Program-made: the position numbers and the translations under genes
Shown: positions 21,132 to 63,968 of the stretch, in pieces
How positions within the stretch are numbered: position 1 is the first letter of the stretch
Layout of the letters: the number at the start of each line of letters is the position of its first letter
Notes under the pieces: model-generated
Databases searched by the model: none
Seen by the model: only the letters and a program-made list of their open reading frames with translations
What the model was told of the DNA's origin: nothing
From: Pecten maximus
Lineage: Eukaryota
Length of the DNA: 64,000 nucleotides
Assembly (NCBI RefSeq): GCF_902652985.1
Contig: NC_047022.1
Span: forward strand, 34,844,001-34,908,000
Reading direction: 5' to 3'

Positions 21132-21301
21132 CTTGAATCTTCAAACTCCACAAAGGCAAAAGGTGGGCCACGTCTGTTTTTCAACTCAATGTAACGAATG
21201 TTTCCATATTTTGTAAATAAATCTTCGATATCTTTTTGTCTTACATCGGGTGGTAAATTGCCGACATAAATTCTGGAATCAGATCCGCTTCTAGACGACA
21301 T
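21132..21301 (-). CDS. SRSF1: SRSF1 coding exon 1 (RRM1 N-terminal part)
   Basis: [56 protein letters not shown], with RNP2/RNP1 motifs. ATG at 21301, donor AG|GTATGC at 21131. 170 nt, phase 2. Confidence 0.95.
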
Positions 21302-26142: not shown

Positions 26143-26442
<300 letters not shown>

Positions 26443-34858: not shown

Positions 34859-35128
34859 TTATCCAGACTTAAGGAGTAGAATGGCGACTTGTCCTAGGTA
34901 GAAGTAAATGAAATGCTTGGTTTCGTGTGTTACGTAGCTTCCGAAGTTACGTCCAACAATACAATGCCAGGTTGGGTTGTACTTTTTGTCGAACTCTTTC
35001 TTGATGCAGGCGGCGATGTCCTTCTCAATGTTGTATTTCTCAAGAGCTTGTGTTGCGCAGTCTACGGAGTCATGCTGCATGTCTTCAGCCATGTCGGTAT
35101 TCTTAATGACGGCCTTTCTCTCCGACAT
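34859..35128 (-). CDS. DYNLL: Dynein light chain LC8, copy 2 (divergent: A11T, Q19H, Y41C, F86L; possibly decaying)
   Basis: Intact 89-codon ORF; acceptor atttcAG 5 nt before the ATG. Confidence 0.85.
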
Positions 35129-41765: not shown

Positions 41766-42020
41766 CTGTAATTTCTCGATCAGGCAATGGATGCTATATG
41801 AATCAAAATGTTTGTCTCGGAGTGAAAGTTTATAGCAACCCCCGTAAAGCTACACCTATGGGCGCATTATTGAATGCTTTCATTGGTTCGACATCATCAT
41901 TTTATAAGTGAAGGACATAGCGTCTGGTCGGTTCGTATATCCTCCCATGATCCTTCACTATCCAAGAACAGAAACCCACATCACCACGACGACTGGTGGT
42001 ACCGTTTGAGCAGACGACAA
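41766..42020 (-). promoter_or_regulatory. Putative promoter and non-coding first exon of LC8 copy 2
   Basis: Minus-strand GTCGTCTGCT, AGTGAAGG..ATGGG.GGATATACGA, CCAAT, GCGCCCAT, GTTGCTA, then donor CAG|GTAATC at 41765. Same motif order as the other LC8 promoters. Confidence 0.7.
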
Positions 42021-42450
42021 GTTAAGTTCGACTTGGCTGTGAGCTTTCCACGAGAGTTGTTGTCTTGGCTCTACATTTATTGCATTTTTGCCAGTGAAAT
42101 ATAGAAATGTATCGCACTAATAAAACTAATATTTTCACCCCAGCGATGAGCAGTGAAAATGTAAGATTTTGCAGTGAAAATATAAGCGAAGATAGATAAA
42201 TTGGTAATTTTGCTTTTTTTCTGAAATATTCAGACTAGTTTTTGACAAAATACTCATTTGACGTCAGCTATTCATGAACAGATTCTCCGAAAACGTTGAT
42301 CAGTCCTTTCAAAATGGCGCCAAGTTGACATGGAGTAACGTAAAAAAGAGATGACGTCATGAATTGTGTAACTGATTCCCGCACTTTTTGACACTGTTTC
42401 TCGATGTTTTTAATTTTGTTTTTAAGTTTATAAAATGCAATAAAAAGAAA

Positions 42451-42627
42451 ATTGAATGTTCCCGTTTAATATAACATATATTTCACTAGTATGACAGAAT
42501 ATTTCGATATTTTTCACTTGGTCTTCCCACTCGTGAAAATATCGATATTCTCAGAGACATATATATGTCTCTGATATTCTGTCATACGAGTGAGATATAT
42601 GTTATAGTAAACGGGAAACCATTCAAT
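42451..42627. repeat. Long hairpin of an unclassified repeat, containing a P-like footprint
   Basis: attgaatgttcccgttta...taaacgggaaaccattcaat inverted arms; related fragment at ~49060-49120. Confidence 0.7.
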
Positions 42628-43487
42628 ATCCTCTATTTATTGTTGCGAAGTCAAAACAAACACGTAATACTGTCATTGTTGTTTGATGAGGCATTATAGT
42701 GATAATGCAGTGAAAGTGGAAACATATATCAAAACAATAGGAAGGCGTATCGTTACATGAAATATCAATTATAAACATATCAAATTGGAAAATACTGTAA
42801 CAGTACAGACAAAATTTATTAAACTGCATCGTATAACTGATTCCTCATTTTAGGAATCGTCAGTGATTCATTTTAATTAAAGTATAACCGTTCTTGTAAT
42901 AATCAGTAGTACACCTATTCAGCAATAATAGGCGTACATATTCAAACATTCAAACAAGTGTTGCATGCATTAATCCAAAATTATGACATGTTGATATTGC
43001 AGCCAGAATATATTTCACCTGTAATTTGATACTGATAATTACAATTTTCATTGTCTTAATAAAAATGTTAGCGGTCCATAACGAAAACAATAACGATGGC
43101 GTTTGTAACGTCGTTTTTGAGTGGCTGATACAGCGGCGTAAAAAAAAATGCAAAGAGAAAAGAGTTCATAAAAAGTTAAATTAAATACTAAATATGATGT
43201 TCCGACCCTTGTCAAGGATAATTGATATAAGTTCGGACCTTGTCTTTTTCACTCTGGGGCATAGGAAAGCGTTAAAGCCCCTGTGCGTGTACGAAAATGT
43301 ACAAGGTAGTGCATCATGTGTGACTAATTAGCGCATTTACGCATGGACATACATTTGTATAGGCAATATACAATTAAGACAATTATGACTTTAATCGACA
43401 ACACCGTTAAAATAATATTACTACTGAATATAGGAATTCAAAGTGACATTATGTACGAACAAACAAAAGACCAACTCTGGTCTCATA

Positions 43488-43945
43488 TAACGAACAAAAC
43501 ATAGCTTATGATACTTTGTAATATCACAAAGTATTATACCAATTAACATTTAACGAACAAAACATAGCTTATGATACTTTGTAATATCACAAATTATTAT
43601 ACCAATTAACATTTAACGAACAAAACATAGCTTATGATACTTTGTAATATCACAAATTATTATACCAATTAACATTTAACGAACAACACATAACTTATGA
43701 CACTTTCCAATGACAAATGATCATACAAACATTTAACAAACAAAACATAGCTTTTGATACCTTGTAATATGACAAATGATCATAAAAACATTTAACGAAA
43801 AAAACATAACTTATGATAACTTATGACTTATTAAATGTTTGTGTGATAATTTGTCACATTACAAGTAATGTGACAAATTATCACACAAACATTTAACGAA
43901 CAAAACATAACTTATGATATCCTGCAATGTGACAAATTATGATAC
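43488..43945. repeat. 63 bp minisatellite
   Basis: cgaacaaaacatagcttatgatac at 43491, 43554, 43617, then degenerate copies. Confidence 0.9.
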
Positions 43946-44319
43946 AGACTACCATCTAAGGATCTTTCGATATGAAACAATTATTAGAAGTAAAACTATA
44001 GAACTGATAACTATCAACGAGGCAATTTATATTAGAATGAACATCGCCAGCAGCATTACGTAAATATCTCTGATATATAATCAGAGCTGCTGCAATTCGG
44101 GTAAAAATATCTTTTTAAAAATCAGCGCTTATTATCATAAGCAACGCTGGTGCAACACAAAATTATATCACAATGTACATAATGGGCGCTCCTGCCATGG
44201 ATTAAACAAGCACAAGCTATTAAAAAAGTAGTATAAAGTAATATCATAATCAGCGCTGTTGCCATTTATATAACAAATTATATAACATATTTAACATTGG
44301 TGTAATTAATGACACTATT

Positions 44320-44990
44320 TAAATTATATCATAATCAGCGCTGGCGTCATTATTGAAACAAAATTTACGACATAATCAGTGCTGGTGTCCTAGCTTGTTG
44401 TAATACAATTTATGATATAGTCAGTGCTGGTGTCATTATAGTAACACAATTTATGACATAATCAGTGCTGGTGTCATTATTGTAACACAATTTATGACAA
44501 AATCAGCGATGGTGTCATTATTGTAACACAATTTATGACATAATCAGTGCTGGTGTCATTATTGTAATACAATTTATGACATAATCAGTGCTGGTGTCAT
44601 TATTGTAACACAATTTATGACAAAATCAGCGATGGTGTCATTATTGTAACACAATTTATGACATAATCAGTGCTGGTGTCATTATTGTAATACAATTTAT
44701 GATATAATCAGCGCTGGTGTCATTATTGTAACACAATTTATGACATAATCAATGCTGGTGTCATTATTGTAACACACTTTATGACATAATCAGTGCTGGT
44801 GTCATAATTGTAACACAATTTATGACATAATCAGAGCTGGTGTCATTATTGTAATACAATTTATGATATAATCATTATTATAACACAATTTATGGCATAA
44901 CAAAATTAATTACATAACCAGCGTTGGTGTCATTATTATAACAATATTAATTTCGTAACCAGCGTTGGGTTCATTAATGAAACAAATTAT
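44320..44990. repeat. 41 bp minisatellite
   Basis: Unit cataatcagtgctggtgtcattattgtaacacaatttatga. Confidence 0.95.
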
Positions 44991-45459
44991 ATTACAATAA
45001 TCGACCTTGATATATTAATGTAACAAATCTAGTTGCAAAAATAGCTTTGGTGTCATTGTGACAAATTTTATTATAACCAACAAAACATCAGCTTTGTTTT
45101 TATTGCAAATGTCAGATCATATCACAGGTCCATTCAATGTATCTCAACTGTATAAGACACAGTGTGTGAGAAGCAAAACACCTACTTAATAAATTAACAC
45201 TTAACTATAACTTGATTTCACATAAAATTACATATATTTTGTATGTAAAACAGTAAATGAAACAACAATCCTGTTGTTCAACATAGCATACATTCATTGC
45301 TTGGTGCTTCTATAATCAACAAATCTTTAAATGTACAGAAAATAAACTAGGTATCCTTATAAACCAATAAGAAGTATACATCATTGCTTTAAAACAATAT
45401 GGATCCTTATAAGCAAAAGTAAAGTATCTAAGATCCTTACAAATTCTTGCTGGTAATGT

Positions 45460-45689
45460 GTCGTCTGCTACGGATTGAGTGAAGAATTGTGGGTCGATAT
45501 ACGACTCGCATGTATGCCCGCTAACGGTACCAATGAAATAACATTCATTGTCCAATGGAAACACCGTATAATGCGTCCATGTTAATGTCCGTTGCTAGCA
45601 CATATAGATCCGTGTTTCTAATTGACATTATTCACTAACAATTTTGAGTCGAGGAAAGGTGGCTGTCTAGCAAGATCAGAAAAATAGAG
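45460..45689 (+). promoter_or_regulatory. Putative promoter and non-coding first exon of LC8 copy 3
   Basis: GTCGTCTGCTA 45460, CGATATACGACTC 45495, CCAAT 45530 and 45552, GCGTCCATG 45573, GTTGCTA 45591, donor GAG|GTAAGT at 45690. Confidence 0.75.
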
Positions 45690-46700
45690 GTAAGTTAAGT
45701 GTCGCTTGTTTATCATATTTATAATCTGTATTACTGACTATTTTCCCTGTTTTGTGTATATACTACATGTTTTATGGTCGAAGCACATGTGGCGGAATGC
45801 TGTCTGCTGTATGTTTTCTATGGCTGATATATGCCGCCAATAAACTAAACAAGAAACAAATAGACATATTCACAGTTTAGAAATATGTATAGTTTTCGGT
45901 TTACTTAATTGTTATCTTGACAGTAATTTCTTTTCAAATAAATGAAATGAATGATGTGAAAAATCTGCCGAAATATCGGCACTGTGTACAAGGAAATGAA
46001 AAGGTCATGGGTCATTAAATTCTAAAAAGGCCGATATTATGTAATGTCTTCGATACCATGATCATCATTTCGACGAACATCTGCGTAGTCATGTTTAAGT
46101 GAAATTTTACATCGTATAAACTGATGGATTTAGATGTGCTTTGTTTATTTGTAGTGTGTGTAGTGAATTTGTAGTGTTTACATTCCATACATCGGCGGGA
46201 TAAAACGCATATAATTATTCCAATTGGCGTTCATAGCTATTTTCAGTTAACGCGGTCAATTATAATACACATTAAATTAACGTAATCATGTAAAAGGAAT
46301 TCACATATGTATTGTCGTCATTAGCAACCACAAACGATAGGGGGTGTGTGTGTGTGTAATGTTTGCATACACTACCAGAAATAGCCAACTAAGTTTGTAG
46401 TTATAATAATATAAAGAATGTCGTTTCCGAAGTTTCATATCATTGAGGCATATTACTTTGCCCCGATTCCTTCCGCTGCCGCTATATAGATTAAAAGTTT
46501 TCAGTAAGATTTTTAAGGTCATTTTTTGGGGTCCAAATGAAGCGGGGAACGATATATAGATTTTAATAGTAATTGTTGTATTGTTTTTTGTTTAAAAAAA
46601 TCGCCATTCCCACTAAAAATCGAATTCCAGCATGCAAGATACAGATTTCTCCCAAGAACTATTTCTGACGGTACGATCCACCACGACATACATTGTATAG

Positions 46701-47225
<525 letters not shown>

Positions 47226-48333
47226 GCATCAGTATTGACTTTTAACACACTTCCTGACAATCAAGATGCATGGAAGAGATACACGGCCGTTAAGAGTACG
47301 TCAAACAAATTATGCCAACGACCGACTGCCACCACCGAATTGACTCCAATATCGTATATGTTGCTTGACCAAAGACTGTTTCATTATAGACTCTGTAGAA
47401 ATGGTTGCTTACTATTTATTTTACAAGAAAATATGTTTCTATTGTTTACTTGCATTTGTTAAATATACATGTTTACACAGAGAAAACGGTTGCTGATATA
47501 TGTTGTTATTATTATTATAAAATGTCTGGAACACTTTGTCCAGCTAAACAGCATTAAAATAAAGATACTGAGATGGAATCATTACCGTGTTTACTCGTGT
47601 GTATAAAACGGGGAGATTCATTTTAAGGATGAAGGGATTTACCCATGCAAGAACCTGTTCACTTTAGCTTATATTCTACCGCTAGAGTAGTACCATGTAA
47701 AAACATTGCCTCTCAGGCGACGACTCCATAGGCATATATCGCAGTGAAACCTCTACATCATGTACCTATTTAGATGGGACTCGTAGAATTTCTGGGCAAA
47801 GCTAAATTTGACTTTGTGGGACTCGTTGTTTTTGAAAATATTTTGAAATGGAAACGATCGATCTATCCCCGCCCTATTTTGCATTGTATTATAATGAGTT
47901 CAGGTTTACACATTCGTTTACATGCCGACATTCGCCGGTGTTGGGTGTGATCTTCGGTCTGGAGCATAATCGTGTAAAGAGGTCCGTTTGAAGAAGGAGC
48001 TGATGTAAGCCCGACGTTGGCGTTTGATTTCTCATATTAACATTTTGGTCAAAGCGTTGAAATGCATATTGATATTGGGTATAAGGGTCCCTGCAGGCTT
48101 ATACTATCCTCTCCTGGGATCGAACTTTTGGTTTGATTGGGAAAAACCTGCCTTTTGACATATTATGGATAGGACAAATAGTTTTTGGTGTAAGTGTTGA
48201 AAGTCATTAACACATTTCTGGACACTATTCTGGAATTAAGAGTTACAACCACATTTTCGGTGAACAAATTTTACAACCATAAAGCCTTGGGTAGCAGAAG
48301 CAAAGCTAGTGTCCATGATAATACTGAAGTGCG

Positions 48334-48473
48334 TCTCTCGGCAGCAAAAATGTCGTGGATCATAATTCATAATTATAAAGTTCCATAGGACGTCAGTTTG
48401 ATTCTCTCGGCAGCAAAAATGTCGTGGATCATAATTCATAATTATAAAGTTCCATAGGACGTCAGTTTGATTC
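48334..48473. repeat. Exact 69 bp tandem duplication
   Basis: tctctcggcagcaaaaatgtcgtgg...cagtttgat occurs twice. Confidence 0.9.
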
Positions 48474-49305
48474 GAGACGCAAGCTGTACAGAAGCCAATG
48501 CATGCTTTTCCGACTTCCTTTTACTTAGCTATTTGTTGTTATTTTCACTGACAGTACTTTTGTTTATCATTTTATTTTTATCGGCTTTAAATCCTGCTAT
48601 CATACTGGGCCGAAGTAATTATCTAGTTTCCAATATCAAAAGAAATATTACCATTTATTAGGCTCTACACAAGAAGTCCATATCTTATCCAATGCACATA
48701 TCGCCACACAAGAAGTGGCGTTTCACACCTTAACGTGGTATAGATAGATTACATTGGTCGAACAATGGATGAAGACGGGAAATTGGCTCACTTTGTCGAC
48801 ACTTTTTGTCTAGGTGATTTCACCACAATAAAATGTATAAAAGTCTCTCTTTACTTATCCAACCATCCATAATTCTGTCACTGGAAAACAAGTATCCGTA
48901 AATTAAAAAGATTCCCTTATCCAATAAAAAACGACAAAGATAATTGGTCATACTATATTTTACTATGATAATATTTTAAATCATCAGCAGATTCACAAAA
49001 CACATGTATCCTGCTAATGTATATATTTCTGTTGTGGTATGTTCATATTTTATAAATACAGGACATTGAATGATTTCCCGTTCAATATAGGCATATATTT
49101 CACGAGTGTGACAGAATATCCGAGGAATCGGCAGATTTCAATGCAATAAAAATGCAATAGATACAAAATGTAATGCCCTGCGGGTGACTAGGGCGAAAGA
49201 ATTGAACCTGTTGTCATGACCATAGCCAGAGACATATATACTGTATATATGTCTCTGCCATAGCTGTTGATAGGACGTTAAACGACACAAAATCTAACTT
49301 TATAG

Positions 49306-50224
49306 CAGAGACATATATAGAGAGATTGGCTGCTCTCTATTTGCCCCCAATGTCTACGTGTTGGCCCCTGACCTTCCCACCATCCTTTGCGGTCGCTCGG
49401 TTCAGTCTTAACCTGACGCCATATTGGAGAAAACTTGAAAACCAGACACATAATTATCGATAATTTCTATTTGAAATCATCACCCAGATCAAATGATGTG
49501 CTTTGATTTTATTAATATCAAAATGCAGAAGTGTCATCAATATGAAATATATCACAATTTGCTGTCAAAGTGTTTGAGTATAAAAGTCAAGCACACGGCA
49601 GGGAAGATCGGCGGGAATCTCCAATTTTCGAAAAGTCCCTATAGGGTTTTCGAAAATACGGACAATGACTACAATGTGCATGATAAACAAGACCATATCC
49701 CATAAGTATGATCGTTTTTGGATAATGAAGTAACTTTTGTAGTGCCCTACATAAAACGATGTGCTTTTTGTTTGCGTTTAAAATTGACGATGTTTTGGTC
49801 TGACGTAATGGCGGCTTAATTACAAAACTAGGATATGTCGAATAGGACCCAATGGATTTTCGAAAAAATACGGATTAATGACAACAATATGCATGATCAA
49901 CAAAACTTTATCCCATAAGTATGATAGTTTTTGGATAATGAAGTAACTTTTGTAGTGGCCTAAATAAAACGATGTGCTTTTTGTGTGTATTTAAAATTGA
50001 CGATGTTTTGGTCTGACGTAATGGCGGATTAGCCAGAACATGTCAAATAAGTTCCAGTACATCGATACACACATGCGCAAAGCCCGATTAACCTGTGCTC
50101 GCGTGTGTTTGATAGGGGACAGGGCGCTCTCGATAAGTGATATGCTTGAGTGGTCACGAATAAAGGGAGCCACCACTTGTACGGGAAAATAGCGATGTTT
50201 CTTATTTCTGTATATATGTCTCTG
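49306..50224. mobile_element. P-like non-autonomous element
   Basis: TIR CAGAGACATATATA...TATATATGTCTCTG; no TSD (abuts a truncated related element); internal direct duplication. Confidence 0.75.
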
Positions 50225-52498
50225 GTCAGACGTTTAGAAAATACTTTATTTTCTATTAGAAAACGGGCACTTTCACGGGATGGGGGGACACAAATTAACA
50301 CGCTACTAAGTGATGGATCACACCATTTTATATATTAGAAAAAGGACACTTTCAACACAATACTTATTAATTTGCCATAAAATTGATTCATTGTGAATGT
50401 TAAAATGCGTTTGCTTGTTGCGTCCTGTGCCACCCGGTATGTACGTTAATTGAGCACCTCCAGCTAGATGTCACCATATTAACACCCCCAACCCAAACCC
50501 AACCCCAACCCCCTCCGGCCATGGACGGTTTTACCTACAGCTTATACATATATCTTCAATGCCGCTACAGGTAGGACTGTGATCTAAAGTTCTCTGGCCG
50601 CAGTTCAAAGGAACCTTGCAACTTACCTGTGATAAAATTCACAACTTACCTGGCTGTGATCGGGTGACATGTTGACAAACAAATAATCTGTATTTGTATA
50701 ATTGTCTGTAGCCAATTTCAGCGGTATTATCAAGCAGGGACATTCATATCTGATATGTCCCTTTATCAAGTAAATATTAAGGAACATAAAATGTCAAACT
50801 TTTCAGGAAAATCAAAACCAGGAATAATATCCATAGAAAAAAATATTAGGAGAAAGATCCTATGGTCGGTTAATTTATGTACACTTTGCCATAGTAAAAA
50901 TATTATCTGTTTTAATGTCTCAAACTATGACAGTAAAAACTTAGATTTTTAGCCAACCATCATCAGATGGTGGGCTATTCAAATCGCCCTGCGTCCGTAG
51001 TCCGTAGTCCGTCCGTCCGTCCGTCCGTCCGTCCGCCCGTAAACAATTCTTGTTATCGCTATTTCTCAGAAAGTACTGAAGGGATCTTTCTCAAATTTCA
51101 TATGTTGATTTCCCTCGGTGCCTAGTTATGCATATTGTGTTTTGAGATTTTGACAATTGAAGATTGTTATTGCTATATCTCAGAAAGTACTGAAGGGATC
51201 TTTCTCAAATTTCATATGTAGGTTTCCCTTGGTACCTAGTTATGCATATTGCGTTTTGAGACTAAACGGAAAACAACATGGCCGACAGGCAGCCATCTTG
51301 GATTTTGACAATTGAAGTTTGTTATCACTATTTCTAAGAAAGTATTTAAGGGATCTTTCTCAAATTTCATATGTAAGTTTCCCTTGGTGGCTAGTTATGG
51401 ATATTGCGTTTTGAGACAAATCGGAAAACAACATGGCCGACAAGCAGCCATCTTGGATTTTGACAATTGAATTTTGTTATCACTATTTCTGAGAAAGTAT
51501 CTAAGGGATCTTTCTCAAATTTCATATGTAAGTTTCCCTTGGTGCCTAGTTATGCATATTGCATTTTGACACCAATCTGAAAATAACATGGCCGACAGGC
51601 AGCCATCTTGGATTTTGACAATTGAAGTTTGTTATCGCTATTTCTGAAAAAGTACTGAAGGGATCTTTCTCAAATTTCACATGTAGGTTCCCCTTGGTGC
51701 TTAGTTATGCATATTGCGTTTTGAGACCAATCTGAAAACAACATGGCCGACCGGCAGCCATCTTGTATTTTGACAATTGAAGTTTGTTATCACTATTTCT
51801 GAGAAAGTATTTAAGGAATCTTTCTCAAATTTCATATGTAAGTTTCCCTTGGTGGCTAGTTATGCATATTGCATTTTGAGACCAATCTGAAAATAACATG
51901 GCCGACAGGCAGCCATCTTGGATTTTGACAATTGAAGTTTGTTATCGCTATTTCTGAGAAAGTACTGAAGGGATCTTTCTCAAATTTTATATGTAGGTTC
52001 CCCTTGGTCCCCTGTATTGCTTTTTTGGACCAGTCTGTCCTGAAAACAACCTGGCAAACAAACAGCCATTATCGTTAAATATCAAATTTCTTATATAGCT
52101 TTAGGATTCCCTTGTTTGAAAAGTACTGGAGGGATGTCTCAATTTGCACAGATTAGTAAAAGGAAGGGGAAAATAGAGAGAAGATTAATCTGACATAGAA
52201 CCTATAAAGATCATTCAATGGTGGGCACCAAGATCCCTCTGGGATCTCTTGTTTGTTTTGTTACACCCGGCGATTTTAGGTAAAATTTATCTGAACAAGA
52301 CAGTAGTAATTGATATTATTTACAGTATTTACAGCCCGTCACTGTGTCACTGGACGATCTGAGCCTTGATCTAACACTAGGTTCAGTGTTAGGCGCAGGC
52401 GTACAGCCAAATCTCGCGACACAAAGCTTCCGCTCCAGATAACAAAAAGGACATGCGTGATGTAGCGAGACTTACCTATCCTTCGAATCTCTGGTATA
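50225..52498. mobile_element. Truncated second copy of the 37526-41760 element
   Basis: Matches ~38198-38667, 41029-41515 and 41520-41750; interrupted by a HINE. Confidence 0.8.
50949..52253 (+). mobile_element. Complete HINE with (GTCC)n and ~155 bp tandem units
   Basis: 5' TTAGCCAACCATC hairpin, GTCC microsatellite, about six units, 3' gatccctctgggatc palindrome plus TT; inserted in a T-run that is empty in the other host copy. Confidence 0.9.
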
Positions 52499-52847
52499 AA
52501 ACTATGCCGTTTATCTTTTTTAAAGATATTTCTTGTTATATATGAATCTTGGATGAAATATTTTATATTATTACCATTTTTCATTGTTATTATCTATAGC
52601 AGTTTTGTGCAATATGCTCGTTTTTAATGCCACTTAAAGTATAAAATAAATGGAACTATCCAATCTGTCACGGTGGTCAAACTGTTATAATAGTCTGACC
52701 AACACCTGTACATGTAAAGTGTATATAGATACTTGCGCTGTGCATTGTGTATAATGTTTGTACAAGTCCCTGTGTCGTATAATGTCCTATGTACCTGTGT
52801 ATATAGTTGTTTTGGTGACGTATGCTACCTGTGTTAAAGTGCGCATT

Positions 52848-53062
52848 GTCGTCTGCTATTGACTGAGTGAAGGCTTATGGGACGATATACGACTCTAATA
52901 CATACCTTTAATACCGCCAATCAAGTAGCATTTTCTGACCAATGATACCTTTGCGTATGGCGTCCTTAGTTCCATGTTACTACCCTTCATAAGTCTGCAT
53001 TGACTTTGTTTGAACAAAATCACACATCGAAGAAGTTGTTTGTTAGAAGAACGCACATACAG
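52848..53062 (+). promoter_or_regulatory. Putative promoter and non-coding first exon of LC8 copy 4
   Basis: GTCGTCTGCTA 52848, CGATATACGACTC 52883, CCAAT 52917 and 52939, GCGTCC 52960, GTTACTA 52976, donor CAG|GTATTT at 53063. Confidence 0.7.
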
Positions 53063-54465
53063 GTATTTATATATATATATTTTTTTATTTTTGTTTCAGC
53101 AAACTTATCATTTGCACGTCCATCACATATCATAATTTTGTGGTAATATATAATTTGTAACAGGTGTTTTCTCATTTACTTAATGTCAAATAAGATTTCG
53201 CTTAACATATAATTTTAGCATTACATATAATTAAAATTATATGTTTCTGGTTATATGTTAGCAGTATAACCATCGTAATGCTATTTTACTGACACCATGT
53301 TTAATTTGATACCGTGGTCATACATCCTTACGTACTTGGAACATCGTTGCCATTGGTGACGGAATACCATACCGTTGAGCGGAAAATTCAAAGTAGTAAC
53401 TTCATGTCAACAGGTAATTCAAATAAAAAATGATCCGAGCAAGGATTTCAATACGTCGACACAATATGTATATTTCTATAGATTTTCTTATACCGGTTTA
53501 TCGTAATACCTTTTTAGGCAATTATTTCTTTACAAATATTACATAACAATCTGGATTGGATTTTAAAACAATCCTTTGGTAGTTTTGGTATTTTAAGCAA
53601 GTGTAAAATGGTAATGTTTTCGAAACATTCATGTCCCCTCTCTTTTGCGAGGACGATCAACCCTATATAAATATTTAATTTAGTAACTAACATAACAGGG
53701 ACATACATATAATATAGTATAAATAGTACATGTATTAATAATAAAATATTTTATTTACGTGTCACATATTTCACAACATTTTTTTCACAGAACTCAACAA
53801 ACATACTTGTAAAACATGCCCAGCCTAAATTGACTTACGAGACACTTAAGCTCCGGAACATATTATTGTACATAAACATGCAAATATAGAACCTATACAC
53901 GAGGGTGGGAGACGTGCAAGAGTGGTTGGGCCAATCCCTACCGACAAATTGCACAACCCTAATCCTCGTCATCATAACATCAATTTGATAAATTATAAAA
54001 TACAATACTTTACAGAATATTTGTGACAAGTCGCCTTACCATCACCAATACATCAATCGGAACACATTAATTACAGATAAAATACATAATATGTAGCAGT
54101 TGTATCACAGTCTACAACGTCTCCTTTTCATAAAAAGGAAGATTGACCGAGCTAAAAGAGGTTGCAGCGATTCGTAATAAAAATAAATTTATCTTTGCAA
54201 TTCAAGGAAACAAATGAATCATCTAAAGTACTTGCTTTCGCAAAAAGAAAGGAACAGAATAAAAATTACATTCACATAAAAAATGGATTTCGTTTTCTAT
54301 TTTAAAATTACAAAATTTACACAACCTATTGTTTAATGGGATGATAGGACGTGTAAATCTATCCGTCTCTATTTGGAGCGATAAGCTGCCACTTCTTAAC
54401 TTAGCTAATAAGCTACGGCGTGGTCTTAGTATTAAACTAGTGACGTAAGACTCTAATCATAAATG

Positions 54466-55463
54466 TTTTATACCCCCGCAACGAAGTTAGGGGGGTATAC
54501 TGGAATCAGGTTGTCTGTCCGTCCGTCTGTCTGTAGACGCATTTTGTCCGGACAACTCCTCCTAAACCGATGGGCCAATTCCGATGAAACTTCACACAAA
54601 TATTAATGATCATGTGTAGATGTGCATGCCATTTTATTTTTCTCAAAATTATGGTTGCTATGGCAACTGGTCACTATAAACAGGGTTTCCGATAAGAACC
54701 ATAACTTTAAGTTTGTCCGGACAACTCCTCCTGAACTAAATGGCCAATTTCAATGAAACTTCACACAAATATAGAGGACCATGTGTAGATGGGCATGCCA
54801 CTTTTTTTTCAAAATTATGGTTGCTATGGCAACTGGTCACTATAAACAGGTTTTCTGATAAGAACCATAACTTTTTTTTTAAAGTTTGTCCGGACAACTA
54901 AACCGAAGGGCCGATTTCAATGAAACTTCACACAAATATAGAGGACCATGTGTAGATGTGCATGCCTATTTATTTTTCTCCAAATTATGGTTGCTATGGC
55001 AACTGGTCACTATAAACAGGTTTTCCTATAAGAACCATAACTTTTTAAGATTGTCCGGACAACTCCTTCTAAACGAAATGGCCAATTTCAATGAAACTTA
55101 ACACAAATATAGAGGACCATGTGTAAATCTGTATGCCACTTTCTTTTTTTTTTCAAAATTATGGTTGCTATGGCAACTGGTCACTATAAACAGGTTTTCT
55201 GATAAGAACCATAACTTTAAGTTTGTCCGGACAACTCCTCCTAAACCGAAGGGCCGAATTCAATGAAATTTTACACAAATATAGAGGACCGTGTATAGAT
55301 GTGCATGCCACTTCATTTTTTTTTCAAAATTATGGTTGCTATGGCAACTGGTCACTATATTAATGGGTTATCTTAGTTAGCCTCTAATTAACAGTTCCAA
55401 TTCACCATTGACTCGTGAAGATTGCGGGGGTATTAGTCAGCCATCCTGGCGACAGTTCTAGTT
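54466..55463 (+). mobile_element. Complete HINE/DINE-1-like element with ~170 bp units, in the LC8 copy 4 intron
   Basis: 5' TTTTATACCCCCGC, GTCY microsatellite, five units, 3' GCGGGGGTAT subterminal inverted repeat and hairpin. Confidence 0.88.
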
Positions 55464-55754
55464 AAAAAAATAAATAATCGGTATGTCCTTAACTTATTTC
55501 CGTTAGTGTTATCTTTATCACACCAGAGGCCGGAAAACCACACCTCTTCATCAACTTGGCGCACCTTTTGTTTGATTTTTAACATAACGGATTTGGTTGA
55601 ATTAGAAGCATCATTTATAATATTGGTGATTCAGCTTCAGGTGATACCATATTTACTAGCTAGCTTTTTAGCTCGTGAATACCATGATTTGCCTTTCCTT
55701 AAATGTATGTACATTCCTGATTTCGTAGGTGTTACAGGCCAATGCAAATTATAA

Positions 55755-56087
<333 letters not shown>

Positions 56088-56552
56088 ACATCACGAATTG
56101 ACTGTTTCATTTCCATTCGTCCTGAACCAAGAATCATTTGAACAGATGAACAAAAGTGTCCTCAAGTCATTACTTGGAATTGAAGTTGACAATTCTATAA
56201 AACGAGTCAAAAGCATTATTAAATGACCTTTGAGCCACATTGGCCAGATGTTAGTGCGACTCAAAGGACGTGTATTAAAAAACAATACGTTATACCTCAC
56301 GATGAAATTGGTGTAACAATAATTTTCTCTCTTTTTATATGTTTTGTTAATATATTTATATGCATTGTTGAATATAAAACACACGTTTACACATATTTTG
56401 TTTGTTTTTATATGAAACAAATCAGAAGACAATTCGTAGCGGTATACAATAAACCATACAGCACGACCAAAATAACAATTTATATGGAAACGCCCGGTTC
56501 TTTATGATCATGTTGAAACTACCATTCTACACTTCGCGCGAGTAACAAAATA

Positions 56553-57147
56553 CCGTATAGCCGGTTATAATTAGTTTTGCAGGTTAAATATTTCGCGATT
56601 TTTTTTACAAACGAAATGATTCAATTTTAACGAATTATAATTCCAAGATCTGGTTGTAAGACGATATATAATTTTCGCGAATATGGACCCAATGTTGAAT
56701 AACGAAGTGTTTGATACGCGAGGCTTTGTCAAAATTTCTGTTGCACTAGTAACAACTCTCATCTGTTTGGGTTTGCTATATACTTTTCAGTAGACTTTTG
56801 TTCTGAATGCATTACAGGTATGTTCAGCGAGAAGCTCGAAGATTTATGCTTATAAACCCAATCATTCTGTATAACCATGATATTCTGTTGTATCATTAAC
56901 AAATCATGTCCTGCGCAGTAAATGTTGTTTTGAACAAGTATAATTATCGATACATTCTTGGATGATTGAAATCGGCTAATGGCAGTACAATATGACGACA
57001 GTTTTAATCGAAGTGTACCTGTATATATTTCGCGAATAATATTAACCCGTGTTTTATTATTTCAAATATCAAATGTTCGCGACTTCGCCAATTGCTCATG
57101 CACGATATAGCGAGCATATCATTCCCGCGAAAATTACCGGCTATACC
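56553..57147. mobile_element. Tc1/mariner-like MITE
   Basis: ta-ccgtatagccggt ... accggctatac; ttcgcga subterminal motifs. Confidence 0.55.
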
Positions 57148-57960
57148 TTTATATTCAGACGTCAATATAAAGGTAGTTTAAAAGAGGTTATTACGTTTTA
57201 GCTTGAAACTGACATCTTTTAGTCTCCATCAGCCTATTATAAAGTCTTTTATCCATTTGAATATTAAAGTATAAATTATTGTAAAATATTATGTCCCTCT
57301 CCATAGAGATGTTTCTTTTCTTAGAAGGATTTGAGAGAGTAGATATTGAGATATGTACATGTGTATACTCAGAACTCGTGGTGATTTCATTTCAACATAT
57401 TTTATTGTATAACATTTATACAAATGGGTTAGACAGCAGGCTCGTGGTGATTAATTCAGTGTTTTTCGAACCCCTATAACGATTCCTTGTGTCGGAACCG
57501 TTTGTCGATAGTGATAGATATTTTCTTCTTTTACAAAATACTGAACTATTCCCCGATGACCAAGCTCAACGATGTCCATCTTTTTGGAACAAAATCACCT
57601 GGCAAAGAAAGTTCACTTATGTGTGAAAATAAAATAAACAGAAAAAAACAACTTACTAGTGCATAACTTACACAGACAATCCTCTCATCGAAGTATACAT
57701 TACATTGTAAACAGTCTTAAACTTGCTGAAGTGATCTTTGTGAAAATGATAGTTGCAGTCTCGATAAAGCTAATGTTCGGGGATGTAGGGAACCCAGTGA
57801 TGATTATACAGATTCCGGGACGCTGAGATATCTTGCAAATCAGCAGGAAACACATTGCGATGAGGGTTCGTTTAGTCTTAAAATATCTAAAATACCTGTT
57901 AAGGTCAGTCAGTGTAGTGGTATATGTGAGAGCAATCTATGGCAAGAATTGTAAACAAGA

Positions 57961-59340
57961 AACAAGAGGCCCATGGGCCCTAACGGTCATCTGACAAACA
58001 CTTACAGCAGGGACACATCCCTCAATCCAGCATCATTACCATAAATTATCTATATGCAGCCAGTTATGTTTCAGATCAAATTTGGTTTTTATCCATTTTG
58101 GTTTAAAGGAAGAGCAGCATCTTAAAGCAAATGTTTAGCCAAGTTCCCATTTTTGGGGCATGCCCATCTGTCCTAATGGGTCGGACAGGCTTCATTTATA
58201 TCAATTAGGATTGCTCTTCCCCAATGATGTTTCATACTAAATATGGCTGTAATCAGTTAAGGCATTAAGGAAGAGTAGCATTTTAAAGACATGTTTAACC
58301 TAAGTGCTCCTTCTTTCCCCAGGGGTTAGACCTGTCTCATTTATACAAAATATGATTGCCGTCCCCTTATGATGTTTCACATCAAATTTGGTTGTAATCC
58401 AAAGGTTAAGGAGGAGTAGGATTTTATAGCAAAAATTCACCAAAGATCCCCTTTTGGGGCCTCGGGCCCCAGGGGTCATAGTAACCTCGTTTATATAAAA
58501 TATGACCGCCCTAACCGAAGGATATTTCGCACCATATTTGGGTTAGAGAGGAGTAGGATTTTATAGCAAAATTTCATCAAAGTTCCCATTTTGGGGCCCT
58601 TCCCCTCTGGCCCTAGGGGTCAGACCAGCCTTATTTATATAAAATATGATTGTCCTCCCCCAATGATGCTTCACACCGAATTTGGTAATAATCCACTTTG
58701 GGGTTTAGGAGGAGTAGGATTTTAAAGCAAAATCTCATCAAAGTTCCCATTTTGTGGCTCTGGCCCTAGGGGTCAGACCAGCCTCATTTATATAAAATAT
58801 GATTGCCCTCCCCAAATGATGTTTCACAGCAAATTCGGTTGTAATGGACTCAAAGGTTAGGGAGGAGTAGGATTTTATAGCAAAATTCACCAAAGTTCCC
58901 CTTTTGGGGCCCCGCCCCTCAGGCCCAGGGGTCACACTAGCCTCATTTATATAAAATTTGACCGCCCTTACCCATTGATGTTTCACACCATATTTGATTG
59001 TAATCCACCCAAGGGTTAGGGAGGAGTAGGATTTTAAAGCAAAAATTCACCAAAGTTCCTCTTTTTGGCCCTAGGGGTCAGACCAGCCTCATTTATAAAA
59101 AATATGTCTGTCCTTCCCCAATGACGTTTCACACCAATTTGGTAATAATCCACTTTGGGGTTTAGGATGAGTAGGATTTTATAGCCAAAATTCACCAAAG
59201 TTCCCCTTTTGGGCCCGCCCCTCCGGCCCCAGGGGTCACACTAGCTTCATTTATATAAAATATGACCGCCCTTCCCCAATGATGCTTCAAACTAAATTTG
59301 GAAGTAATTCACTCAAGGGTTAAGGAGGAGTAGCGTTTTG
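57961..59340 (-). mobile_element. HINE-like element (3' end at 57961) with satellite units
   Basis: aacaagaggcccatgggccc end; tandem ~150 bp units shared with 570-1065. Confidence 0.8.
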
Positions 59341-59384
59341 AGTCAGATGATCTAAAAATATTAGAACCTTATTAGTGCCTTGTG

Positions 59385-60980
59385 TGTGTATACTAAAATA
59401 AGTCTACATGTGGATTTGTGTACACTGATATAAGTATATATGTGGATGTGTACACTGAAATAAGTCTACATATGGATATGTGTACACCGAAATAAGTATA
59501 CATGTGGATATGTGTACACTGAAATAAGTCTACATGTGAATGTGTACACCGAAATAAGTCTTCATGTGGATATGTGTACACCGAAATGTGTACACTGAAT
59601 TAAGTCTACATGTGGACGTGTACACCGAAATAAGTCTCTATGTGGATATGTGTACACTGAAATAAGTCTATTTGTGGATATGTGTACACTGAAATAAGTC
59701 TACATGTGGATATGTGTACACTGAAATAAGTCTACATGTGGATATGTGTACATTGAAATAAGTATCTATGTGGATATGTACACTGAAATAAGTCTACATG
59801 TGGATATGTGTACACTGAAATAAGTCTATGTGTGGATATGTGTACACTGAAATAAGTCTAAATGTGAATATGTGTACACCGAAATAAGTCTACATGTGGA
59901 TATGTGTACACTGAAATAAGTCTACATGTGGATATGTGTACACCGAAATAAGTCTACATGTTGATATGTGTACACTGAAATAAGTATCTATGTGGATATG
60001 TATACACCGAAATAAGTCTACATGTGGTTATGTGTACACTGAAATAAGTCTACATGTGGATATGTGTAAACTGAAATAAGTCCACATGTGGATATGGGTA
60101 AACTGAAATAAGTCTCTATGTGGATGTGTCCACCGAAATAAGTCTACATGTGGTTATGTGTACACTGAAATAAGTCTACATGTGGATATGTGTACATTGA
60201 AATAAGTATCTATGTGGATGTGTACACTGCAATAAGTCTACATGTGGATATGTGTACACTGAAATAAGTCTACATGTGGATATGTGTACACCGAAATAAG
60301 TCTGCATGTGGTTATGTGTACACTGAAAAAAGTCTACATGTGGATATGTGTACACCGAAATAAGTCTCTATGTGGATATGTGTACCCCGAAATAAGTCTC
60401 TATGTGGATATGTGTACACTGAAATAAGTATCTATGTGGATGTGTACACTGAAATAAGTCTACATGTGGATATGTGTACACTGAAATAAGTCTACATGTG
60501 GATATGTGTACACTGAAATAAGTCTACATGTTGATATGTATACACTGAAATAAGTATCTATGTGGATATGTATACACCGAAATAAGTCTACATGTCGTTA
60601 TGTGTACACTGAAATAAGTCTACATGTGGATATGTGTAAACTGAAATAAGTCCACATGTGGATATGGGTAAACTGAAATAAGTCTCTATGTGGATGTGTC
60701 CACCGAAATAAGTCTACATGTGGTTATGTGTACACTGAAATAAGTCTATATGTGGATATGTGTACACTGAAATAAGTATCTATGTGGATGTGTACACTGC
60801 AATAAGTCTACACGTGGATATGTGTACACTGAAATAAGTCCACATGTGGATATGTGTACACTGAAATAAGTCTACATGTGGATATGTGTACACTGAAATA
60901 AGTCTACATGTGGATATGTGTACACCGAAATAAGTCTACATGTGGTTATGTGTACACTGAAATAAGTTTATATGTTGATA
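59385..60980. repeat. 32 bp minisatellite, about 50 units
   Basis: Unit gaaataagtctacatgtggatatgtgtacact. Confidence 0.95.
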
Positions 60981-61854
60981 TATTTTTACCAGTGAAATTG
61001 ATAGCATTATCAAACTTATATCATCAAAAGATAATCACAAGTGATGACATAATTTTTTGATGAACCGTATAATATTATTTTTGTTGTGATATAATTTATT
61101 GATGAACCATATATTATTATTTTTGTTGTGATATAGTTTATTTATGAACGTTATAACATTATCATTGTGAAGATATGATTTATTTATGGGCCTTATATTA
61201 TTATCATTGTGATGATATCACAGTGATAATGGTTAGATCTAAATATAGGGAAGGAAGAATAACTGGTTAGTTTGATGCATATCTGCTATAAACACTGAAG
61301 AAGTTATGAATTCAATACTCATTTAACAGCAGTTTGAACAACAAAAAAACGCTGAAAACGCCAGGGGTTCTCCAATCAAAATGACGCTCCCCCCATCTTT
61401 CCGTTTTTAAAAAAGAAATAAATAGAAATTTAACAAGTATAGCAGACTATACCGATCTGTCATTTTTGTGAAATATTTGTGATATTCAACGGGAAATTTT
61501 GGTAATTCAATCATAGTGAAAAATATATGATCTTCATCTGTAAAACTCTCAAAATAAAAACAAAATATATGTATCTTTTTGTTTCTTCTCTAATTTATAA
61601 ATTTATAAATCTTCAATACAAATGGTTTTTCGAGGGTAATTGATAATTTTGCACGTTAGAAGACAGACACGCAATAGATTCATAGGCAGGTGATATATAT
61701 AGACACCTCGCAAGGGCAAACAAGCCAAGTCTCTAACTAATAGTTCCGATATACTCTTTGGCTTGGGAAAATTTACATCGGTTTTTCATCTTCCGTGGTA
61801 CAGCACATGTGGCACCGCATGTCGATCTAACTGCTTTCCCGCGAATTCTGCGTT

Positions 61855-62045
61855 GTCGTCTGCTAGAATTTGGTGGATTGTGGTTCGATATACGACTCTG
61901 GTGTATGCCGTTTATTTCAGCAAATCAGAGTACTGCATTTAGCCAATGAAAGAAATAGAAAGTGCGTCCATGGATGCTTGTTGCTAATGTTGCTCTCACT
62001 TCTGCCCTTTCATCATCCAGCATCGTTTAAAATCAGCGGAAAAAG
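61855..62045 (+). promoter_or_regulatory. Putative promoter and non-coding first exon of LC8 copy 5
   Basis: GTCGTCTGCTA 61855, CGATATACGACTC 61886, CCAAT 61943, GCGTCCATG 61964, GTTGCTA 61980, donor AAG|GTAATT at 62046. Confidence 0.75.

Positions 62046-63665: not shown

Positions 63666-63968
<303 letters not shown>

What the first reader, a model, noticed from the sequence alone, without database searches (positions are those of the whole stretch)
41766..62045. Conserved multi-motif promoter module shared by LC8 copies 2-5 but not seen for copy 1
Seen: in otherwise unalignable DNA, four loci (41833-42018 minus, 45460-45597, 52848-52983, 61855-61986) keep the order GTCGTCTGCT - (C/G)GATATACGA(CTC) - CCAAT x1-2 - GCGYCC - GTTRCTA, followed by a short exon and a GT donor. 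Known: CCAAT binds NF-Y and GTTGCYA is an RFX X-box half-site, typical of ciliary genes. I cannot assign GTCGTCTGCT or CGATATACGACTC to a known factor. Inference: a motile-cilia or sperm regulon signature with possibly undescribed motifs, with copy 1 as the housekeeping gene.
Basis: partly seen in the sequence, partly recalled or inferred. Interest (0 to 1): 0.7.

Follow-up and report, generated by a model that had tools for sequence, protein, structure and literature searches.

The report
Ancient LC8 promoter inherited by duplicates
Seven scallop copies of the dynein light-chain gene LC8 share one promoter layout, likely inherited from an ancestral gene pair, with a probable ZNF143 site and an unassigned flanking motif also seen in corals, so it is likely an old gene-specific control element rather than a signature of cilia genes.

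Summary
The module is real, but copy 1 has it too (all but GTCGTCTGCT), as do two LC8 copies 20.8 Mb away. Genome-wide its core matches 7 places, all LC8 promoters, and neither unassigned motif appears intact upstream of 24 tektin/Tctex genes. So it looks like a promoter inherited by duplication, not a ciliary regulon signature. Copy 1 is the likely source: it lies head-to-head with SRSF1, as LC8 does in 6 of 78 other-animal loci and DYNLL1/SRSF9 does in human. The 18 bp before GATATA fit the Staf/ZNF143 site, and published ChIP-seq shows ZNF143 on the human and mouse orthologous promoters. Copy 1's site plus GATATA matches a coral LC8 promoter at 20 of 23 bases, with CCAAT 34 bp on in both. 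GATATA sits where vertebrates have ACTACA; its binder and that of GTCGTCTGCT are unknown (candidate: ASCIZ). Scallop binding and the ZNF143/ASCIZ genes are unshown. The scan had not noted this module; one octopus note reports ZNF143-like sites at another promoter.

The parts
21126..21368 (-). SRSF1-like gene, first coding exon and 5' leader (ATG 21301), divergent partner of LC8 copy 1; later exons near 11866-12070, 11570-11738, 8779-8985
   Evidence: PDB best hit SRSF1 E 1e-24; RNA contigs cover 21126 up to 21368/21349/21323/21296 in 4 of 4 runs; later exons read from sequence
21434..21451 (-). Copy 1 Staf/ZNF143-type site (CCCR at 3-6, C at 12; 0 mismatches to CCCRRNRNRC)
   Evidence: lies between the furthest RNA-contig ends of SRSF1 (21368) and LC8 copy 1 (21455)
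21452..21460 (+). Copy 1 accessory element GATATATGC abutting the ZNF143-type site; coral LC8 promoters have GATATAGGC
21486..21551 (+). Copy 1: CCAAT 21486-21490 and 21508-21512, GCGTCC 21529-21534, X half-site GTTGCTA 21545-21551
21455..21667 (+). Copy 1 non-coding exon 1 as far as one RNA contig covers it; donor after 21667
   Evidence: spliced joint 21664/26165, GT..AG at cut +3, run X7, 1 of 4 runs
26173..26442 (+). LC8 copy 1 coding sequence, 89 aa (likely ancestral locus)
34859..35128 (-). LC8 copy 2 coding sequence, 89 aa, four substitutions against copy 3
41833..42019 (-). Copy 2 module: TGTCGTCTGCT 42009-42019, ZNF143-type site 41942-41959, GATATACG 41934-41941, CCAAT 41882-41886, GCGCCC 41860-41865, X half-site 41833-41839; donor after 41766
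45459..45597 (+). Copy 3 module: TGTCGTCTGCT 45459-45469, ZNF143-type site 45478-45495, GATATACG 45496-45503, CCAAT 45530 and 45552, GCGTCC 45573, X half-site 45591-45597
45629..45689 (+). Copy 3 non-coding exon 1 (start inferred: contigs of three studies stop at 45629-45630)
   Evidence: joint 45687/46949 GT..AG in 4 of 4 runs, sides 58-59 in 3 of 4; contigs cannot show a start
46956..47225 (+). LC8 copy 3 coding sequence, 89 aa
52847..52982 (+). Copy 4 module: TGTCGTCTGCT 52847-52857, ZNF143-type site 52866-52883, GATATACG 52884-52891, CCAAT 52917 and 52939, GCGTCC 52960, GTTACTA 52976-52982; candidate donor after 53062
55818..56087 (+). LC8 copy 4 coding sequence, 89 aa; its own 3'UTR is covered by contigs in 4 of 4 runs
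61854..61986 (+). Copy 5 module: TGTCGTCTGCT 61854-61864, ZNF143-type site 61869-61886 (A at position 3), GATATACG 61887-61894, CCAAT 61943, GCGTCC 61964, X half-site 61980-61986; donor after 62045
   Evidence: joint 62043/63692 GT..AG in 1 of 4 runs
63699..63968 (+). LC8 copy 5 coding sequence, 89 aa

Best explanation
The module is the core promoter shared by seven LC8 gene copies, likely inherited by duplication from the bidirectional SRSF1/LC8 promoter at copy 1 and likely kept by selection, with a predicted ZNF143 site, predicted NF-Y CCAAT boxes and a predicted RFX half-site. Shown: the shared layout and fixed spacing; its restriction to LC8 loci; the SRSF1 link; spliced transcripts from three of the promoters; the fit to the published ZNF143 site definition; and ZNF143 ChIP peaks on the vertebrate orthologous promoters. 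Inferred mechanism: ZNF143 bound on the reverse strand drives initiation (both ways at copy 1). NF-Y binds 34 and 56 bp further on, about three and five helical turns. RFX at the start site adds output in ciliated cells. GATATA(T/G)GC (GATATACGA in the duplicates) is an accessory site in the slot that ACTACA/THAP11 fills in vertebrate SBS2 sites, bound by an unknown partner. TGTCGTCTGCT was likely gained once, in the ancestor of the six duplicates that lost the SRSF1 side, as a distance-tolerant upstream activator site. The copies likely raise LC8 dosage.
For: 7 of 7 genome-wide core matches are LC8 promoters; 4 of 4 for the CCAAT-GCGYCC-X pattern. Among four lineages (c1, c3, c5, d1), identity is 0.83-1.0 in GATATAYG/CCAAT/GCGTCC columns, 0.55-0.60 in the 18-mer and 0.37 in spacers (the columns were picked by conservation, so this is partly circular). 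UTRs and introns do not align. SRSF1 is head-to-head with LC8 in 6 of 78 metagenome loci, 28 of which have 1 kb or more upstream. L198's SRSF1 is 90% identical to a stony coral's and at most 74% to the named bilaterian hits. Site definition from PMC3082894, CCCR at 3-6 and C at 12: C12 in 7 of 7, CCCR in 6 of 7. A matrix from six human sites printed in PMC3627581 and PMC1904299 ranks this 18-mer first of 698 positions in 5 of 7 promoters. PMC3627581 Tables S4/S5 list ZNF143 peaks at human DYNLL1|SRSF9 (flagged bidirectional, 4 of 4 cell lines), the main DYNLL1 promoter and SRSF1, and at mouse Dynll1, Dynll2, Srsf1 and Srsf9. The mouse Dynll1 site has A at position 3, like copy 5. The best 23-mer match of the whole copy-1 intergenic DNA in 289 kb of other-animal loci is this site plus GATATA (20/23 in L191, 19/23 in L198), with CCAAT at +34 in all three and in L212. 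In L154 and L159 the site lies 35 bp before CCAAT.
Against: No binding data in scallop. A ZNF143 gene was not searched for in G000 (no query sequence was on hand). The minimal CCCR..C12 rule alone is uninformative (5 of 9 other-animal windows vs 4.7 by shuffle). The human matrix ranks the site only 10th in copy 3 and 35th in copy 5, and the duplicates have 2-3 mismatches to CCCRRNRNRC. No clear site in L193, L155, L157, L175 or L172, and L159's site is not significant on score alone (p 0.136). GATATA is absent in L154, L159 and L170, and in the vertebrate rows seen. The three coral loci are close relatives, so one lineage. Over all 78 loci a 20/23 match is expected 0.6 times, and about 0.01 times if only promoter windows are counted; the case rests on position and spacing. 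One copy-1 RNA contig reaches 21455, upstream of the CCAAT boxes, so some starts lie 5' of them. Vertebrate site-to-CCAAT distances differ (+49, +80, counted by hand).
Confidence: 0.75

Rival explanations
1. ASCIZ/ATMIN, the dedicated LC8 activator, binds GATATA(T/G)GC or the GTCTGC core of TGTCGTCTGCT, beside or instead of ZNF143; this would explain why these motifs mark LC8 promoters only. Not exclusive of the best explanation.
For: ASCIZ is the transcription factor for LC8 in mouse and fly, with negative feedback (PMC5963919, PMC4197704, PMC5115829, passages). GATATA extension at LC8 promoters of scallop and coral without genome-wide enrichment. GTCTGC in 5 of 9 other-animal LC8 promoter windows (shuffle p 0.0025, 0.019 over six 6-mers; real-window control 4 of 2000). 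It also overlaps site positions 1-2 in human and mouse DYNLL1 (read).
Against: No ASCIZ site sequence found to compare (two key papers not held). ASCIZ Pfam searches of G000 were blank or below cut-off (inconclusive). Copy 1 has no GTCTGC within 20900-22200. GTCTGC lies within 250 bp of the site in only 3 of 8 non-scallop sites. GATATA is missing in 3 other-animal loci and in the vertebrate rows seen. The 9 windows were my choice from 78 loci.
Confidence: 0.25
2. One reading: a motile-cilia or sperm regulon signature shared with other axonemal genes, absent from a housekeeping copy 1.
For: X half-sites at all 7 promoters (full palindrome in d1, d2). RFX motifs are the top motif of multiciliated-cell promoters from vertebrates to Nematostella (PMC5245798, passages). 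A TEKT1-like promoter (L090) has CCAAT, two X half-sites and GCGTCC. TGTCGTCTGCT is 3.9-fold over its dinucleotide-matched reversed control (2111 vs 543). GTCTGC lies near 3 of 27 strict X half-sites upstream of ciliary-family genes vs 0 of 34 in control DNA (p 0.08).
Against: Copy 1 has the module. No non-LC8 match of the core. No exact 11-mer and no strong GATATACG-block match (best 14.5 vs 18.6-27.2 at LC8) in 240 kb upstream of 24 tektin/Tctex-1 genes. GCGTCCAT plus X half-site 19 vs 20. 8 of the first 30 11-mer hits are two repeat families. Only 2 of the other 22 have a strict X half-site nearby vs 33 of 677 control windows. GTCTGC density is equal in ciliary and control DNA (39 vs 39).
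Confidence: 0.08
3. The TGGGA core is bound by RBPJ/Su(H) (Notch) or an Ikaros-like protein rather than ZNF143.
For: In human cells RBPJ and Ikaros bind the same TCCCA core of these sites (PMC3627581, PMC5006282, passages); L159 carries TTCCCAC.
Against: C at position 12 is kept in all 14 sites tabulated, and copy 1, the coral duplicates and L170 match the whole CCCRRNRNRC, beyond what RBPJ needs. No scallop site has TTCCCA.
Confidence: 0.07
4. Neutral remnant of recent duplication or gene conversion, or a repeat fragment.
For: Coding sequences of copies 2-4 are 95-96% identical, and copy 2's promoter groups with d1/d2 (77-78%) while its coding sequence groups with copies 3/4, a sign of conversion.
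Against: Spacers are at 0.37 identity and UTRs/introns are unalignable while motifs and spacing persist. No match away from LC8 genes. Flanks of TGTCGTCTGCT do not align with either repeat family that holds it (z -2.1 to 1.8). Coral match.
Confidence: 0.03

Closest known systems
Staf/ZNF143 binding site (SBS1) in bidirectional promoters (PMC3082894, PMC3627581); specifically the ZNF143-bound human DYNLL1|SRSF9, DYNLL1 and SRSF1 and mouse Dynll1/Dynll2/Srsf1/Srsf9 promoters
   Same: 18-bp site with CCCR at 3-6 and C at 12, in a short head-to-head promoter between an SRSF1-family gene and LC8, with CCAAT boxes downstream.
   Different: Found in a mollusc and corals; followed by GATATA(T/G)GC; CCAAT at +34/+56 rather than +49/+80; copied into six unidirectional duplicates; binding not shown here.
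SBS2 / M4 composite (RRACTACAN + SBS; THAP11/HCF-1), PMC3627581, PMC5006282
   Same: A conserved accessory element of about 9 bp abuts position 1 of the site.
   Different: The accessory reads GC(A/C)TATATC or TCGTATATC on the site strand, not ACTACAN; its TAYR-like core is one base further from CCCR; no binder known.
RFX X-box promoters of ciliary genes (PMC5245798, PMC5838959)
   Same: GTTRCTA half-site at or just before the inferred start in 7 of 7 copies, full palindrome in 2; also next to CCAAT at scallop tektin-family promoters.
   Different: Mostly half-sites; the rest of the module is not shared with the ciliary-family genes examined.
ASCIZ/ATMIN-DYNLL1 feedback loop (PMC5963919, PMC4197704)
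   Same: A gene-specific input on LC8 transcription conserved between mammals and flies, which predicts an LC8-specific DNA motif.
   Different: No ASCIZ recognition sequence was available to compare, and the gene was not found in G000 with two short Pfam models.

Membership tests
Staf/ZNF143 site (SBS1) | CCCR at positions 3-6 of an 18-mer | tested here: met
   6 of 7 copies; copy 5 has ACCA, as does the ChIP-positive mouse Dynll1 site
Staf/ZNF143 site (SBS1) | C at position 12 | tested here: met
   7 of 7 scallop and 7 of 7 other-animal sites tabulated; the minimal rule alone is common by chance
Staf/ZNF143 site (SBS1) | Best match in the promoter to an independent matrix | tested here: inconclusive
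   rank 1 of 698 in 5 of 7, rank 10 and 35 in copies 3 and 5; matrix from only six human sites
Staf/ZNF143 site (SBS1) | Orthologous promoter is bound by ZNF143 | tested here: met
   published ChIP-seq rows for human DYNLL1|SRSF9, DYNLL1, SRSF1 and mouse Dynll1, Dynll2, Srsf1, Srsf9; vertebrate data only
Staf/ZNF143 site (SBS1) | ZNF143 gene present in this genome | not tested
   no query sequence on hand; an unchecked scan note reports the gene in an octopus
Staf/ZNF143 site (SBS1) | Protein binds the site in scallop | not testable with these tools
   needs EMSA or ChIP
SBS2 / M4 composite | ACTACAN immediately 5' of the SBS | tested here: not met
   accessory is GCATATATC or TCGTATATC in scallop and GCCTATATC in coral
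NF-Y CCAAT box | CCAAT pentamer 20-80 bp before the start (consensus recalled) | tested here: met
   proximal box in 7 of 7, distal box exact in 3 of 7; start inferred from contigs
RFX X-box | Two inverted half-sites (full X-box; consensus recalled) | tested here: not met
   full palindrome only in d1 and d2; window copies have one half-site (2 or more mismatches to a full box)
RFX X-box | Half-site close to the transcription start | tested here: inconclusive
   GTTRCTA in 7 of 7; contigs stop 32 bp after it (copy 3) or inside it (copy 5) but run through it in copy 1
Ciliary regulon signature | Recurs at other axonemal gene promoters | tested here: not met
   0 non-LC8 matches genome-wide; 0 of 24 tektin/Tctex-1 upstream regions with the intact 11-mer; promoters of some may lie beyond 9 kb
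ASCIZ/ATMIN target site | ASCIZ gene present and its motif matched | tested here: inconclusive
   PF24757 no match, PF24759 only below cut-off; motif not found in searchable text
Interspersed repeat fragment | Copies away from genes, flanks alignable to a repeat | tested here: not met

The most novel reading that the evidence does not exclude
A 23-bp promoter element (ZNF143 site plus GATATA(T/G)GC) with a 34-bp spacing to CCAAT has survived at LC8 genes since the coral-bilaterian ancestor, and its accessory part, or the GTCTGC motif, is the DNA site of ASCIZ, the feedback regulator that sets LC8 levels across animals.
Probability: 0.25. Interest if true: 0.78.

Novelty: new variant of a known kind. 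Interest (0 to 1): 0.52.

Why it matters
It replaces a loose 'cilia signature' with a defined, old promoter. Seven paralogs give a natural footprint, and the same element is recognisable in corals and, for the ZNF143 part, in human and mouse. If right, ZNF143-type control of the SRSF/LC8 pair predates bilaterians and uses an accessory motif other than ACTACA. It also names two short candidates for the ASCIZ site, which I could not find in the searchable literature; a band-shift assay tests them directly. My one search on the SRSF/LC8 linkage and one on the motif words found no paper that describes them.

Tried and rejected
Copy 1 lacking the module: rejected.

Repeat origin: rejected for the module. 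The 3 non-LC8 hits of GTCGTCTGCT+GATATAYG are two copies of one repeat and one unrelated site.

GATATACGA as a widespread motif: 173 vs 160 in the reversed control; several of the first 30 hits are repeats.

GCGTCCAT plus X half-site as a composite: 19 vs 20.

ZNF143-type word plus CCAAT as a genome-wide fixed-spacing pair: 300 vs 82 matches, but many are repeats, the control carries a CpG, and only 12 of the first 100 fall at 34-36 bp vs 9.7 expected.

Structured RNA: no Rfam match in the window.

ASCIZ gene search: blank or inconclusive.

RNA contigs, absence only: no depth over copy 4's exon-1 bin in 4 of 4 runs (a masked repeat lies at 53055-53097), and none over 35026-35500 (5' part of copy 2's coding exon) in 4 of 4 runs at 97% likeness. 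None of this shows silence. 4 of 24 listed runs were laid, all as contigs, so no start sites or levels.

LC8 protein labels as a guide to taxon: unreliable. The coral-type loci carry a protein filed under a sea urchin, so L154/L159 (protein equal to a Bugula record), L170, L193, L155, L157, L172 and L175 stay unassigned animals.

The matrix included one wrong GATATATG from d1 among seven training sites.

Resemblance of GTCTG to a Smad element and of CGTCTGC/GCGTCC to the HINFP motif: recalled only, no motif library to test.

Supplements of PMC3082894 (10 files searched, 2 not readable) and PMC5838959 (5 files) had no DYNLL rows. PMC3270970 and PMC3914618 are not held and may give the ASCIZ site. 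The ATMIN motif of PMC10847093 is in a figure I could not see.


Full report
OBSERVATION. The window holds five LC8 genes, each 89 aa in one coding exon: copy 1 at 26173 (+), copy 2 at 35128 (-), copy 3 at 46956, copy 4 at 55818, copy 5 at 63699. Copy 1 is not an exception: 21434-21551 carries GATATATG, two CCAAT, GCGTCC and GTTGCTA at the same offsets (-77, -43, -21, 0, +16), and lacks only TGTCGTCTGCT. The genome has 12 LC8-like matches. Two further copies at C8 14.01 Mb (d1, d2) carry the full module with a palindromic X-box; a copy on C11 is a processed retrocopy of copy 3 without it. The host is a scallop: its SRSF1 is 89% identical over 138 aligned residues to a Mizuhopecten protein, and earlier scan notes say the same.

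IT IS A PROMOTER, KEPT BY SELECTION. RNA-type contigs (4 of 24 listed runs laid; one is on record as RNA) join exon 1 to the coding exon at GT..AG for copy 3 in 4 of 4 runs and for copies 1 and 5 in 1 of 4 each. Three studies' contigs stop at 45629-45630, 32 bp after copy 3's X half-site, a weak hint of the start. One copy-1 contig reaches 21455, upstream of the CCAAT boxes, so starts there may be spread. The 112-bp core aligns between all 21 pairs (z 3.7-26.8) with a single 1-bp indel, while 3'UTRs, introns and upstream DNA do not, apart from the young pair d1/d2. Across four lineages identity is 0.83-1.0 in motif columns and 0.37 in spacers (partly circular).

IT IS NOT A REGULON SIGNATURE. 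GATATAYG-N44-50-CCAAT-N14-18-GYGYCC has 7 matches in 918 Mb, and all 7 are LC8 promoters (about 1 expected by composition; reversed control 13, not inspected). The CCAAT-GCGYCC-X pattern has 4, all in the window. GGNNGATATACGA is not enriched (173 vs 160), nor is GCGTCCAT with an X half-site (19 vs 20). TGTCGTCTGCT is enriched (2111 vs 543), but 8 of the first 30 hits are two repeat families, and only 2 of the other 22 have a strict X half-site within 150 bp, against 33 of 677 control windows. I fetched 10 kb at 6 of 7 tektin-family loci and at 18 regions covering the 19 Tctex-1 matches. They held no exact 11-mer and no strong GATATACG block, like 16 random regions. What ciliary-family promoters do share is CCAAT plus an X half-site, and once GCGTCC, in line with RFX as the conserved motif of multiciliated-cell promoters (PMC5245798, passages) lying close to the start (PMC5838959, passages). 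The GTCTGC core lay near 3 of 27 strict half-sites there against 0 of 34 in control DNA (p 0.08), with equal overall density: open, not support.

COPY 1 IS LIKELY THE SOURCE. An SRSF1-like gene starts on the minus strand at 21301 (PDB best hit SRSF1, E 1e-24), and its contigs reach 21368. Of 78 LC8 loci from metagenome contigs (28 with 1 kb or more upstream), 6 have SRSF1 head-to-head with LC8. L198 and its close relative L191 are stony-coral type: L198's SRSF1 is 90% identical to Acropora's and at most 74% to the named bilaterian hits. Human DYNLL1|SRSF9 is listed as a bidirectional pair, and mouse Dynll1/Srsf9 and Dynll2/Srsf1 are divergent neighbours by their coordinates (PMC3627581 Tables S4 and S5, rows seen). 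So the pair likely predates bilaterians, and copies 2-5, d1 and d2 are duplicates that took the promoter along.

WHAT THE MOTIFS ARE. The 18 bp directly 5' of GATATA read, on the other strand, as a Staf/ZNF143 site: CCCR at 3-6 and C at 12 (definition in PMC3082894, passages). C12 holds in 7 of 7 and CCCR in 6 of 7. A matrix from six human sites printed in PMC3627581 and PMC1904299 (passages) ranks it first of 698 positions in copies 1, 2, 4, d1 and d2, 10th in copy 3 and 35th in copy 5. Copy 1 matches CCCRRNRNRC (PMC5006282, passages) fully; the duplicates have 2-3 mismatches. ZNF143 drives bidirectional transcription, and published ChIP-seq has peaks at human DYNLL1|SRSF9 and the main DYNLL1 promoter (4 of 4 cell lines), at SRSF1, and at mouse Dynll1, Dynll2, Srsf1 and Srsf9. 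The mouse Dynll1 site has A at position 3, like copy 5. In copy 1 the site lies in the 86-bp gap between the two genes' contig ends. Limits: the minimal rule is common by chance (5 of 9 windows vs 4.7); a scallop-trained matrix finds the site in L154 and L170 (p 0.003 each) but not in L193, L155, L157, L175 or L172; L159's site is picked by the human matrix at the right distance but p 0.136. The 9 windows were chosen by me, one per lineage, from the 78 loci.

DEEP CONSERVATION. Scanning all of copy 1's non-coding intergenic DNA against 289 kb of other-animal loci, the best 23-mer is the site plus GATATA: 20 of 23 with the second LC8 promoter of L191 and 19 of 23 with L198's (two unrelated 19/23 matches also occur), with CCAAT 34 bp after GATATA in scallop and coral alike; L212 repeats this. 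Such a match is expected 0.6 times over all loci and about 0.01 times in promoter windows, before counting strand and spacing. The three coral loci are one lineage. The accessory element reads GCATATATC in copy 1, GCCTATATC in coral and TCGTATATC in the duplicates. It fills the slot of ACTACAN in vertebrate SBS2/M4 sites but is not that motif. L154 and L159 have the site 35 bp before CCAAT without GATATA; L170 has it far from CCAAT. The site-plus-CCAAT spacing is not a genome-wide pair in scallop (12 of the first 100 of 300 hits at 34-36 bp vs 9.7). TGTCGTCTGCT is invariant in 6 of 6 duplicates at 11-56 bp from the site, absent from copy 1, and unrelated to the repeats that hold the word. Its GTCTGC core is in 5 of 9 other-animal LC8 promoter windows (p 0.0025; 0.019 over six 6-mers) and overlaps site positions 1-2 in human and mouse DYNLL1 (read), but lies within 250 bp of the site in only 3 of 8 non-scallop sites. 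GCGTCC is in 4 of 9 windows (p 0.016).

MECHANISM. Shown: layout, spacing, LC8 restriction, SRSF1 linkage, splicing from three promoters, motif fit, vertebrate binding. Inferred: ZNF143 opens and drives the promoter, both ways at copy 1; NF-Y binds 34 and 56 bp on (about three and five helical turns, which would explain the fixed spacing); RFX at the start adds output in ciliated cells; GATATA binds a partner of ZNF143; TGTCGTCTGCT was gained once by the duplicates as a floating upstream site. Because LC8 has a dedicated activator, ASCIZ/ATMIN, in mouse and fly (PMC5963919, PMC4197704, PMC5115829, passages), an LC8-only motif is what one would expect, and GATATA(T/G)GC or GTCTGC are candidates (0.25). 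ASCIZ was not found in G000 with two short Pfam models (inconclusive), and ZNF143 was not searched for; an unchecked scan note reports the ZNF143 gene in an octopus.

LITERATURE AND NOVELTY. Searches for the motif words, for LC8 promoters with RFX in bivalves, for the ASCIZ site, for the SRSF/LC8 linkage and for ZNF143 in invertebrates found nothing that describes this module, from listings and the passages named. Also seen as passages, without use: PMC10847093, PMC2958817, PMC3485006 and bioRxiv 10.1101/2024.03.08.583864. PMC3270970 and PMC3914618 are not held and may map the ASCIZ site. The scan's notes had nothing on this module. The parts are known kinds; new are the non-vertebrate ZNF143-type site with a different accessory element and its coral-scallop conservation.

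VERDICT. Observation partly confirmed; ciliary-regulon reading not upheld; best explanation an inherited ZNF143/NF-Y/RFX promoter of the ancient SRSF1/LC8 pair (0.75); new variant of a known kind; interest 0.52.

Noticed in passing
L004:9691-10000 and L006:1-360 (G000:C11 37.50 Mb): Processed retrocopy of copy 3: 3'UTR alignment score 329 of 335, poly(A) tail, direct repeat at both ends, 3-codon deletion, no module; implies copy 3 is expressed in the germ line.
   Followed up: partly
window 34859-35128 and 41833-42019: Copy 2's promoter groups with the distant copies d1/d2 (77-78%) but its coding sequence with copies 3/4 (95%), a sign of gene conversion; it has four amino-acid changes in a nearly invariant protein.
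   Followed up: partly
L001:9784-10000: Distant copy d1 has a one-base insertion in its coding sequence (real break or assembly error), though its module is intact.
   Followed up: no
window 54543-55359: Tandem repeat in copy 4's intron with five perfect full X-box palindromes; the same repeat family lies upstream of a tektin gene (L092), so X-box scans in this genome are inflated by repeats.
   Followed up: no
L090 about 8130-8290 (G000:C8 15.26 Mb): TEKT1-like promoter with CCAAT, two X half-sites, GCGTCCAT, a short exon and a donor; the only ciliary-family promoter seen with GCGTCC beside the X-box.
   Followed up: partly
L191, L198, L212: Coral-type loci carry their own tandem LC8 duplicate; in L191 and L198 it lies behind SRSF1 and both promoters keep site plus GATATA, a parallel to the scallop cluster.
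   Followed up: yes
L061/L062 and L068/L069 (G000:C1): Near-identical pairs 7.4-8 kb apart containing GGTCGATATACGA, ATTGG and a TATA-like box; probably long terminal repeats of a retroelement.
   Followed up: no
window 26166 and upstream: In run X19 a 426-base contig matches copy 1's coding exon from 26166 but not exon 1 at 21455-21667; possibly another leader exon.
   Followed up: no
window 41024-41750 and 50543-52498: A shared dispersed repeat (75-90% identical pieces) lies 16 bp into copy 2's first intron and upstream of copy 4.
   Followed up: no
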